Origin: Hormiphora californensis
Lineage: Eukaryota > Animalia > Ctenophora
Assembly (NCBI GenBank): GCA_020137815.1
Contig: CM035352.1
Span: forward strand, 6,696,001-6,760,000
DNA length: 64,000 nucleotides
Reading direction: 5' to 3'
Below, piece by piece: positions 11,018 to 14,000 of the stretch. Position 1 is the stretch's first letter; each line of letters starts with the position of its first letter. Made by a program: the position numbers and the translations under genes. A model generated the notes under the pieces. It was not told where the DNA came from, ran no database searches, and saw nothing but the letters and a program-made list of their open reading frames with translations.

Positions 11018-14000
11018 ATGGTAAATTACCCTTTTCCCCCCTCTTTTTTAATACGGAATAACATTATACGGTATTCACTACATAAAGGTTGAAATGAATT
11101 AATTAATTGCATTACGAATGGTAAATTACCTCTTAGTACACATTGATAATCTGTAAAAAGTATAAATAATGAATCTATAGTAATAGTTTCAAACTTTTCA
11201 ACACTACTGTAAACAAATTAATTTGAGTTTTAGGATAAAGCTGATGTAACAGCCCACGAGGGGCAGAAAGAAAATGGTAAATACTGATAATGAAGAAGAA
11301 GCAACTCCTCGGATTTACCTGGCAGCTCATCCTGGCAAACCGGCTACTGATATTGATAGGAGGAATGTCAACGACTGCCAAAGTGATACAGTATATTGGG
11401 TAAAAGACTTGTTGTCGGATTGTTCAGGGTTTGGATACAGTAACCCAGAGGCAGTGAGATATGGAACTGGTCCTCCACCAAGGTCTACCTGGGATGATTT
11501 AGAGGTTCCGTCTGCGAGCAAGCTTAATACGCTGTCGAAGAAAAAGCTTTTAGATTTTACTAAGAGGGCGTGTGGTATTTTTCTTGAACAGACATTTCCA
11601 CTAATTGAAAAGTTGCGTGACAAGGGTTCTGAAAGTATGATGGTGAGAGAGTGCGAAAAGGAGCTCAGACAACATGGAAAGGAGCTAATTAAAGCTCAAC
11701 GAGACCTCGTAGCAGCACAAGAGGAACTACTCAATATCCAGAGGCAGTTGCTTGAGAAGAGGGAGGTTGAGATTACAGCTGTGCAGTCAACGGCACAGCA
11801 AGAATTGAAGAGCTTCGCATCCGTTTTGGAGAAAGAATGTGCCTCGGCTCTGGCTCCAAGGAAGATTCAATCAGCGATTGTGGCTGCCTCTGAGGACCGT
11901 GGGTGCAACATCATCATCCATGGCCTGGAAGAGTCAATAAATAGTAGTGTAGAGCTTGAAACTCAAGTTTAGTCTCTTCTTGTTGAGCTAGGAGAAACTC
12001 AGAACGTGAAATCAGTGGAGCGCATGGGAAGGCAGTCTTTAACTGTCAGACCAGTGAAAGTCGTACTGAAGAGCAGAGACGCTCAGATGTCGATCCTGTC
12101 GAAAAAATCCCGACTAAAAAGGACCGGCAAGTTCGATAAAGTCTACATTTCGCCTGACAGGACTTTGGAGGAACGAAATGAGAGAAAACAGCTTGTTGAT
12201 CGACTGAAGGAAATGGTTCAAAGGTCTCCTGGAAAACACTACTTCATTCGTGGGAAGGAGGTGGTAGAAGCACCAGGGACTACTGAGAATGGAAATTAAA
12301 TTTGTTGAGTTTAGAAGTGGTGAGCGAGGAAAGGACAGTTGAGTTGAAAGGTGGTCATTTGTTTGATAGCCTCAATTTATTTTCAAGTTTCAAGTTTCAA
12401 GTTTCAAGTTTCAAGTTTCAAGTTTAATGCCCCCCTAACCCTCTCCCTCCCAAACAGGCCCGTAGTTTCTCTGGATCACTGGTGCCATGCTCCCCGTTGT
12501 GGCCCTCTCGGGCCAAGAAAACCATTACCGTCCATATCCAGACACTCGATGTTGATATGGAATTCAGTGTACCGGTAAGAACACTTGTCATGTCTAACCC
12601 TCCTTTACATTTGTGGAGGGTGTGGTGAAATAGGAAAGGCAAGCCCTCCTATGATTCTCTCCTCAATTGTTTTGTTACGGAGTTAGAAAATGTAAAAGTT
12701 TGTTACCGAAATTTCTGTTCCCCCTCCATTATTGTTTGTTATAATTTCTGTTCCCCATAGTACCGTGCGACTGGTAAGGAGGTGTTCGATAAAGCAGCCA
12801 ACACCATCGGACTGAGAGAAACATGGTTTTTTGGCCTTCAATTAGCTAATCAAAGCACCCAGGTTTGTAAATTGCTTTTTCTTCTTGTCAACTATGAATA
12901 ACCTCTCTGGAGCCCTTCTTCTCATCTCATATCATTTGGTTAAATTACATTTCTTAGAATTTGGATAGATATACAGACTACAGTATACCGTGTGCGGCAA
13001 AAAAAAGCCCCCCCCCCTAGACCACCATAGTTGCCGATGTGGTGGAGAGCTGTAACTTGGCAGGGTTGCTCCACTATGTCTATCTTGATCCTGACAGAAA
13101 AATCAGAGCTCTAGCTCAAAATTCATTTTTTTGATAGGAATGAACATTGTCATTCATTCCAAGAAAAAAATATTTTCGGTCCAGAATTCAAGCAATTATC
13201 TTTGGCCATCGATTAGCTTTCCAATGTGACCAAGATCATCTAAATTGGGCAACCACAAGAGACACAGTGTCATCTTTCTTAAATTTAATCAGGTCATGTG
13301 ATCTTCACCGAATCGTTGAGTGTTCAGTATTACGAATCGGTCTAAGTGGTAGAGAATCACGTATCACGGCTACTAATGAGGGATGACGATGCTGATTGGT
13401 CATGAGATCTGTAGCTCTTTGATAAATGTCCTCTTTCCTCGAATCACATTACCCTGTATTGGTACACATACCTCATTAGCGGCCGTGATACGAGATTCCT
13501 CTGCCCATTGGCTCGATTAGCAATCCCGGATAATCAACGATTCGGTGAAGATCACATGACCTGACTAACTTTAAGAAACATGACACTGTGTCTCTTGTGG
13601 TTGCCCAATTTAGATGATCTTGGTCACATTGGAAAGCTAATCGATGGCCAAAGATAATTGCTTGAATTCTGGACCGAAAATATTTTTTCTTGGAATGAAT
13701 GACAATGTTCATTCCTATCAAAAAAATGAATTTTGAGCTAGAGCTCTGATTTTTCTGTCAGGATCAAGATAGACATAGTGGAGCAACCCTGCCAAGTTAC
13801 AGCTCTCCACCACATCGGCAACTATGGTGGTCTAGGGGGGGCTTTTTTTTGCCGCACACGGTACATATAAACCTCCAAATTCTAAGAAATGTTCCTAATC
13901 ATATACAATCATGCAGGCGACATCTACAGAGATGTGGATAGATGAAAGCAAGCGGATAATCGACCAGATAAACCTTCCATCTGACAACAAACCTGTCCAG

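What the first reader, a model, noticed from the sequence alone, without database searches (positions are those of the whole stretch)
11185..12424. SL-headed, ORF1-only retroelement: an apparent retroposed trans-spliced mRNA with a known empty site
Seen: comparison with the empty site (~7572) defines a 1.24 kb insertion. Its first bases are a 42-mer also found at 570-529 in otherwise unrelated sequence. A 46-nt leader follows, then one LINE-ORF1-type reading frame (11274-12299, one in-frame TAG), an ~80-nt UTR and a (TTTCAAG)n tail instead of poly(A), with no RT. Known: SL relics mark retroposed cDNAs in dinoflagellates, and simple-repeat tails typify CR1/L2-group LINEs. Inference: a non-autonomous retroelement whose transposition intermediate is SL-spliced RNA. 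It could be transcribed passively within host introns or operons, get its capped 5' end from trans-splicing (a TTTTAG acceptor follows the SL directly) and borrow RT in trans. I know of no description of this system in this lineage.
Basis: partly seen in the sequence, partly recalled or inferred. Interest (0 to 1): 0.88.

Follow-up and report, generated by a model that had tools for sequence, protein, structure and literature searches.

The report
Spliced-leader-headed half-LINE in comb jelly
A comb-jelly genome carries a multi-copy jumping element that encodes only a LINE-type ORF1 protein and begins with the short leader these animals splice onto their messenger RNAs; it likely borrows its copying enzyme from full LINEs, and it and a second leader-headed LINE nearby may explain part of the hundreds of unexplained leader copies in ctenophore genomes.

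Summary
11185-12424 is an insertion, absent from a tandem paralogue, lying sense in a FERM-gene intron of a Pleurobrachia-type ctenophore. Its 43-nt head is the published ctenophore spliced leader (SL). The ORF folds like human L1 ORF1p, is intact in other copies and is under purifying selection. Contig depth suggests roughly 14-25 copies, most of them SL-headed. An independent metagenome copy has the same build in a different flank.

Two corrections. The 570-529 copy heads a second, unrelated LINE whose family encodes endonuclease and RT. And no copy spliced at the TTTTAG was listed in 8 runs, so that acceptor does not seem to make the transposition template.

Best reading: an ORF1-only non-autonomous LINE derivative (HAL1/Ag-Sponge type) whose SL head was captured through trans-splicing and is now inherited. 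Its own internal promoter (about 0.45) is slightly likelier than re-splicing each cycle (about 0.28). No RT partner was found and transcription is unproven.

SL-bearing retrotransposons are already noted in flatworms; this scan saw similar heads in tunicate- and dinoflagellate-type genomes. New variant of a known kind.

The parts
11181..11184 (+). TAAT, left copy of a possible 4-nt target-site duplication
   Evidence: sequence; the paralogue has diverged here, so not certain
11185..11227 (+). Ctenophore spliced leader, 43 nt, probably complete from nt 1; one substitution at 11209
   Evidence: matches the leader printed in PMC8527503; SL RNA gene context seen as loose ends
11228..11273 (+). 46-nt leader starting with an acceptor-like TTTTAG (11228-11233); candidate internal promoter or RNA signal
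   Evidence: 46 of 46 identical in L002 although the ORFs differ at dS 0.53
11274..12299 (+). LINE ORF1 (coiled coil-RRM-CTD, L1-ORF1p-like fold); this copy is broken by TAG at 11970-11972
12300..12380 (+). 3' UTR; last 55 nt conserved (53 of 55 in L002); the last ~20-45 nt are shared with other unidentified sequences
   Evidence: (loose ends before 12363)
12381..12424 (+). (TTTCAAG)n tail, about 6.3 units
   Evidence: same tail in L002
12425..12428 (+). TAAT, right copy of the possible target duplication
12429..12457 (+). Host intron end: branch-like CTAAC (12435-12439), pyrimidine tract and CAG before a FERM-gene exon; the element lies just upstream, sense
   Evidence: splice sites inferred from sequence only
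7560..7590 (+). Empty site (7574/7575) in the tandem paralogue
529..570 (-). Second SL copy (42 nt, from SL nt 2), head of an unrelated LINE; 23 nt after the stop of a KTI12-family kinase gene, sense
1..315 (-). N-terminal 105 aa of a zinc-knuckle LINE ORF1 (runs off the window); its family includes a P. bachei model with endonuclease and RT
   Evidence: 99% to P0097; P0086 domains
3828..4300 (-). 3' fragment of a distant relative of the same ORF1, followed by a ~130-nt UTR and an (ATT)n tail, no ORF2

Best explanation
The insertion is one broken copy of a multi-copy, ORF1-only retroelement family whose 5' end is the host spliced leader, and it is likely copied into new sites by the endonuclease and reverse transcriptase of an autonomous LINE acting on its 3' tail. 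Shown: the anatomy, the SL identity, the ORF1p fold, many copies, selection on ORF1, and the exact SL splice junction. Inferred step 1: an ancestor's RNA was trans-spliced and then retroposed, which fixed the SL as the element's head; this happened at least twice, because an unrelated LINE in the window has the same head. Inferred step 2, the one I commit to: copies are now transcribed from the SL's first base by an internal promoter in the SL plus the invariant 46-nt leader, and this unspliced RNA is the transposition template. The TTTTAG may still be used to make a translation-only mRNA. Inferred step 3: ORF1p made in cis packages the RNA, and a CR1/L2-group ORF2p primes on the tail. Confidence in the identity is about 0.85; in the whole cycle as stated, about 0.45.
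For: SL identity. Fold: the 9 Foldseek matches with E <= 0.001 are all human L1 ORF1p, best E 2e-5; profile match to the ORF1 of a LINE locus with endonuclease and RT pieces, probability 97.5. Copies: in run X3 the contig across the flank-SL junction has depth 17.8 while 5 element contigs have 250-440, i.e. 14-25 times, and the SL-leader contig has 332. L002 has the same build in another flank. Selection: dN/dS 0.34 and 0.18; 14 of 20 listed ORF variants are synonymous. RNA origin of the head: it starts at SL nt 1-2 in 3 of 3 heads read in genomic-type flanks (window twice, L002) and ends at the donor, without the SL RNA gene's flanks. For an unspliced template: TTTTAG is retained in all copies seen; no SL-SL stack in 3 of 3 heads or in the listed joints; the second LINE keeps an SL|GT...pyrimidine tract-CAG stretch that splicing would remove; the 46-nt leader is invariant, which re-splicing alone does not explain. 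An SL acting as promoter has been proposed for dinoflagellate retrogenes.
Against: No promoter activity or start site was measured. RNA support is thin: depth 3-6 contigs on parts of the body in 3 of 3 RNA runs, none bridging SL and leader, and DNA carry-over is not excluded. No LINE with the same tail was found. Both SL-headed insertions in the window (2 of 2) lie sense inside or just behind host transcription units, which fits read-through instead. The invariant leader could reflect module exchange between subfamilies. Depth of summed or single contigs is only a rough guide to copy number.
Confidence: 0.45

Rival explanations
1. Self-renewing head: copies have no promoter, are read through by host transcription, and are trans-spliced at the genomic SL's own last AG, so that a fresh SL replaces the old one and the element is regenerated exactly in each cycle.
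For: The SL has no AG between nt 2 and its last two bases, like an acceptor region. The SL is canonical in two subfamilies and in an unrelated LINE. 2 of 2 SL-headed insertions are sense to host genes. About 30% of Hydra TE Iso-Seq reads carry an SL.
Against: GAG is the weakest acceptor triplet (recalled), and a TTTTAG lies 6 nt downstream, yet no copy spliced there was listed. It does not explain the invariant 46-nt leader. n = 2 for orientation.
Confidence: 0.28
2. Master-gene model: one or a few source loci have their own promoter and outron and no genomic SL; their trans-spliced mRNA is retroposed, and all SL-headed copies are dead ends.
For: It explains the exact junction and the retained TTTTAG (the first AG is used). 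This copy is dead. It matches the proposal made for flatworm loci.
Against: Many distinct intact lineages at 88-98% amino acid identity, plus deeper families, suggest that copies become sources. No non-SL sequence before 11228 appeared among the listed loose ends (22 of 247 rows shown; 16 of 86), so this test is incomplete.
Confidence: 0.17
3. One reading: read-through RNA is trans-spliced at the TTTTAG right after the SL, and that product transposes.
For: TTTTAG resembles the likely acceptor before the kinase gene in the window's tight gene pair.
Against: Daughter copies would lack the 6 nt. The window copy, L002 and the depth-332 contig keep them.
Confidence: 0.05
4. Processed pseudogenes of a domesticated host gene, or a chimera made by template switching to SL RNA.
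For: Purifying selection also fits a host gene; template switching made snRNA heads in SINEU.
Against: Simple-repeat tail and no poly(A) signal; sister families have other tails; the junction falls exactly on the SL donor in two unrelated elements, which switching would not favour.
Confidence: 0.05

Closest known systems
ORF1-present non-autonomous LINEs: HAL1 (L1 clade), Ag-Sponge (CR1 clade), HeT-A (Jockey clade); PMC5786205, passages seen
   Same: Encodes only ORF1p, has a LINE-type 3' end, needs ORF2p in trans.
   Different: The 5' end is the host SL rather than the LINE's own 5' UTR; no autonomous counterpart identified; sister families with the same ORF1 carry non-homologous tails.
SL-bearing retrotransposon loci in flatworms: PMC5832876 (6 SL exons merged to TEs) and PMC12582326 (597 loci with partial leaders at LTR/LINE elements); passages seen
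   Same: Genomic SL at retroelements, explained as trans-spliced RNA that was integrated.
   Different: Those are counted loci with mostly partial leaders, and the first paper allows for misassembly. Here a whole leader is a family-level trait with an exact junction, in a ctenophore, in an ORF1-only element.
DinoSL-relic retrogenes of dinoflagellates; PMC5585692, passages and section 11 seen
   Same: SL retroposed with the mRNA; SL proposed to act as promoter.
   Different: Those are copies of host genes, sometimes with stacked relics. This is a selfish element with a single intact SL and a simple-repeat tail.
SINEU (U1/U2 snRNA-headed SINEs); PMC4494074, passages seen
   Same: Head from a spliceosomal small RNA; how it is transcribed is an open question there too.
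   Different: SINEU is non-coding, under 500 bp, and its head is ascribed to template switching.
SL-gene-targeting retrotransposons NeSL and CRE; PMC3636483, passages seen
   Same: A link between non-LTR elements and SL sequences.
   Different: They insert into SL genes. This element carries the SL and inserts elsewhere.

Membership tests
ORF1-only non-autonomous LINE (HAL1/Ag-Sponge/HeT-A type) | Single ORF homologous to LINE ORF1p | tested here: met
   no Pfam family
ORF1-only non-autonomous LINE (HAL1/Ag-Sponge/HeT-A type) | No ORF2 between ORF1 and the tail | tested here: met
   window, L001, L002: 3 of 3; no longer fused protein (weak)
ORF1-only non-autonomous LINE (HAL1/Ag-Sponge/HeT-A type) | Dispersed multiple copies with precise ends | tested here: met
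ORF1-only non-autonomous LINE (HAL1/Ag-Sponge/HeT-A type) | ORF1 kept by selection | tested here: met
   dN/dS 0.34 and 0.18
ORF1-only non-autonomous LINE (HAL1/Ag-Sponge/HeT-A type) | 5' and 3' parts shared with an autonomous LINE | tested here: inconclusive
   other sequences share the 3' end but could not be fetched; no partner found
HAL1 proper | L1-clade origin with poly(A) tail (tail feature recalled) | tested here: not met
   tail is (TTTCAAG)n
Ag-Sponge proper | Derived from a CR1-clade LINE | tested here: inconclusive
   ORF1 resembles that of LINE locus L004; clade not placed on an RT tree
SL RNA gene | SL exon followed by the GT donor and SL intron, with the gene's upstream sequence | tested here: not met
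   element has TTTTAG after the SL; the 570 copy has GT but differs from the SL-gene-like loose ends
SL-relic retrogene (dinoflagellate type) | SL at the 5' end of a retrocopy | tested here: met
SL-relic retrogene (dinoflagellate type) | Parent is a host gene | tested here: not met
   ORF is LINE ORF1p with a simple-repeat tail
NeSL/CRE SL-targeting elements | Insertion into SL RNA genes | tested here: not met
   flanks are a FERM-gene intron and an unrelated AT-rich flank in L002
SINE/SINEU | Non-coding, short, small-RNA head | tested here: not met
   1.24 kb and protein-coding
   only assembled contigs were available; none bridged SL and leader in RNA

The most novel reading that the evidence does not exclude
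Ctenophore LINEs, both autonomous and ORF1-only, have given up their own promoters and are re-headed in each cycle by host trans-splicing at the genomic SL's own terminal AG. Most of the 491-718 SL copies counted in ctenophore genomes would then be retroelement heads, and SL-headed insertions would act as portable acceptors that cut host introns and operons into nested transcripts.
Probability: 0.25. Interest if true: 0.8.

Novelty: new variant of a known kind. Interest (0 to 1): 0.58.

Why it matters
PMC8527503 counts 718 SL copies in Hormiphora and 491 in Mnemiopsis; the passages I saw do not say what they are. This window offers a direct, testable answer for some of them: both of its 2 SL copies are heads of retroelements. 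An element that carries or renews a host SL is also a clean system for asking how a retroelement can do without its own 5' UTR promoter, and whether an SL can act as a promoter in an animal. In practice, genomic SL heads will confound SL-gene and trans-splice-site annotation in ctenophores, and ORF1-only families with no Pfam hit are likely to be annotated as host genes (four P. bachei gene models belong to this family).

Tried and rejected
No whole genome is held, so no genome-wide count, orientation test or partner search was possible.

Empty searches: SL pattern in viral and prokaryote contigs; ORF1 in viral and prokaryote contigs; 3'-end pattern in viral contigs; second LINE's ORF1 in viral contigs. 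The single metagenome scan gave 4 loci, 2 of them from distant, probably non-ctenophore elements. No Pfam family for the window ORF, and only sub-threshold coiled-coil hits for 18 homologues. No PDB sequence match below E 0.08. No Rfam match on the element among 37 weak hits in 1-16000. No longer or fused homologue. The two ORF1 types in the window are unrelated (probability 0.4).

Neither the 3' hairpin (z -1.4) nor the leader hairpins (z -1.25) beat shuffles, so I claim no RNA structure. The sigma-70 scan does not apply to an animal.

The tail unit has a rotation equal to SL nt 1-7 (about 5e-4 post hoc, 0.02 for anywhere in the SL). I set this aside because sister families have (GAT)n and (ATT)n tails. 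Contig lengths near 1.2 kb for cluster members fit the element length but are weak, as such contigs are short anyway. RNA runs had small shares and low depth; I draw no habitat or expression level from them. VIA-align and ESM Atlas searches never ran. Derelle 2010 is not held and the supplements of PMC8527503 could not be read; either may already discuss genomic SL copies. Passages of PMC7986045, PMC10282587, PMC3273482, PMC2566580 and PMC12460157 added nothing on SL-headed elements.

Full report
Observation. Self-comparison shows a tandem duplication (6861-9549 against 10491-15230) in which 11185-12424 is present in one copy only (alignments). The empty site at 7574/7575 is therefore a paralogue. 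The duplicated exons encode a FERM protein on the + strand (FERM_N E 1.3e-7, FERM_M E 7.3e-9; 2 of 4 exon pieces scanned hit). The element lies sense, about 10 nt upstream of a branch-like CTAAC and 33 nt upstream of the acceptor (splice sites inferred). TAAT flanks both ends and may be a 4-nt target duplication. The 42-mer shared with 570-529 differs at one base; chance expectation is 7e-18. The 46-nt leader, ORF with one TAG, 81-nt UTR and 6.4-unit tail are as described.

Organism and SL. The ORF's 90% cluster contains a Pleurobrachia bachei gene model, and three further models are homologues, so the window is from a Pleurobrachia-type ctenophore. The 43-nt head matches the Hormiphora leader printed in PMC8527503 at 42 of 43 positions; that paper reports the leader on 56% of Iso-Seq reads and 718 genomic copies, 491 in Mnemiopsis (passages; supplements unavailable). 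In laid contigs, the SL also occurs with a different, shared upstream sequence (runs X2, X7, X12) and with a GTAAG donor behind it (X2), which I read as the true SL RNA gene. The element has neither. Its head begins where that upstream sequence ends and stops exactly at the donor, as expected if it was copied from a trans-spliced RNA. In two metatranscriptomes the SL stands before other, unrelated sequences (X11, X17).

The protein. Pfam gives nothing. An AlphaFold2 model from 18 homologues (mean pLDDT 73.9) shows a long coiled coil, then an RRM-like and a C-terminal domain. All 9 Foldseek matches with E <= 0.001 are human L1 ORF1p. The profile also matches the ORF1 of locus L004, which is directly followed by an endonuclease ORF (probability 97.5). 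It belongs to a very large family (14,175 representatives at E <= 0.001). The stop is private: 6 of 6 cluster proteins aligned have Glu at 233 and all 4 runs show the sense base. dN/dS is 0.34 against L002 (239 codons, dS 0.53) and 0.18 against L001 (330 codons, dS near saturation). Of the 20 ORF variants listed (30 further rows were cut by the tool), 14 are synonymous. Within the cluster the N-terminal 140 residues vary more (85%) than the C-terminal part (97%).

Copy number and family build. In run X3, the contig that spans the flank-SL junction with no differences has depth 17.8; five element contigs have 250-440, and the contig that joins the SL's 3' half to the leader has 332. This suggests roughly 14-25 copies per copy of this site, about three quarters or more of them SL-headed. 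The tool warns that contig depth is no true copy number, and the runs are only guessed to be DNA. L002, an independent metagenome contig, has a different flank, a canonical SL from nt 2, the same leader (46 of 46), an ORF at 81% with a frameshift, the same UTR end (53 of 55) and the same tail. L001, a more distant family, is also ORF1-only but ends in (GAT)n; its 5' end is cut before any SL. A fragment at 4300-3828 ends in (ATT)n. One RNA-run contig shows the SL joined to a leader that resembles this one but starts differently (X10). Contigs 90-99% alike cover the element in a second organism label (X12). In X5, a different sample, only one contig covers the left flank; it resembles the paralogue and skips the element, a weak hint that this insertion is polymorphic.

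The second SL copy. The 570-529 copy is followed after 213 nt by an ORF that runs off the window. It is 99% identical to the start of a 404-aa zinc-knuckle protein, whose cluster includes a P. bachei model joining that ORF to endonuclease and RT domains. The RT motifs look CR1/L2-group (recalled, not tested on a tree). The two ORF1 types are unrelated. So both of the window's 2 SL copies head retroelements, and SL heads are not limited to non-autonomous ones. This LINE is a candidate RT donor, but its tail is unknown. It sits 23 nt behind the stop of a KTI12-family kinase gene, sense to a tight gene pair.

Mechanism. Mobilisation by a LINE ORF2p acting on the tail follows from the anatomy and from established LINE biology; the partner was not found. 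Capture of the SL through trans-splicing follows from the exact junctions. The open step is how the 5' end is made now. Re-splicing at the SL's own last AG would regenerate the element exactly, and fits the AG-free SL body and the 2 of 2 sense insertions, but it must beat a better acceptor 6 nt away (relative strength recalled) and leaves the invariant leader unexplained. Initiation at the head from an internal promoter fits the invariant leader (P about 3e-10 at the synonymous rate, 7e-5 at the ORF-wide rate), the lack of stacks, and the intron-like stretch kept behind the second LINE's SL. A source gene with its own outron remains possible. I put these at 0.45 (own promoter), 0.28 (self-renewing), 0.17 (master gene), 0.05 (TTTTAG) and 0.05 (others). 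RNA evidence does not decide: depth 3-6 on parts of the body, none on the flanks, no contig across the SL-leader junction.

Comparison and novelty. ORF1-only LINE derivatives are known (HAL1, Ag-Sponge, HeT-A). SL-bearing retrotransposon loci, explained by trans-splicing then integration, are in print for flatworms; Hydra TE transcripts often carry an SL; dinoflagellate retrogenes carry SL relics. Nine full-text searches of open-access papers found no description of an SL-headed or ORF1-only element in ctenophores; Repbase and Derelle 2010 could not be checked. This scan's own unchecked notes report SL-headed LINEs in tunicate- and dinoflagellate-type genomes, and nothing for this protein or genome. 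The finding is real, works like a HAL1/Ag-Sponge element with an SL head, and is a new variant of a known kind. Interest 0.58.

Noticed in passing
window 570-1 (-): SL-headed 5' end of an autonomous-type LINE with zinc-knuckle ORF1; behind the SL lies a GT...pyrimidine tract-CAG stretch (528-446) that looks like an unspliced intron or outron.
   Followed up: partly
window 4300-3828 (-): 3' fragment of a distant ORF1-only relative with an (ATT)n tail; its pre-tail GCGGGATAT motif is shared with L001, which ends in (GAT)n.
   Followed up: partly
window 12989-13861: About 870-nt insertion with long terminal inverted repeats (MITE-like) in the next intron of the same FERM paralogue, absent from the other paralogue.
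   Followed up: partly
window 6861-9549 and 10491-15230: Tandem duplication of FERM (ERM/merlin-like, name recalled) exons; 88-96% identical.
   Followed up: partly
window 2826-594 (-): Methyltransferase and KTI12-family kinase ORFs about 70 nt apart with a TTTTAG before the second start: an operon-like pair.
   Followed up: no
window 12381-12424 and 11185-11191: One rotation of the tail unit equals the first 7 nt of the SL; may be chance.
   Followed up: partly
window 5017-5541 and 9392-9874 (+): Two related ORF fragments without Pfam hit that resemble non-LTR RT C-termini (recalled), next to CCCTAA/TTAGGG-like repeats.
   Followed up: no
window 61413-64000 (+): Gag-like ORF followed by aspartyl protease and RT: an LTR retrotransposon running off the window.
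   Followed up: no
window 4414-4641, 41958-42153, 52390-52615: Three copies of a ~225-nt inverted-repeat element (MITE-like); one interrupts the ORF1 fragment's upstream part.
   Followed up: no
L003 272-1705: Another ORF1-like gene with an (ATT)n tail about 75 nt after the stop and no ORF2, organism unknown, no ctenophore SL.
   Followed up: no
P0001 cluster, residues 1-140: N-terminal part diverges faster (85%) than the RRM-CTD part (97%) among close lineages.
   Followed up: partly
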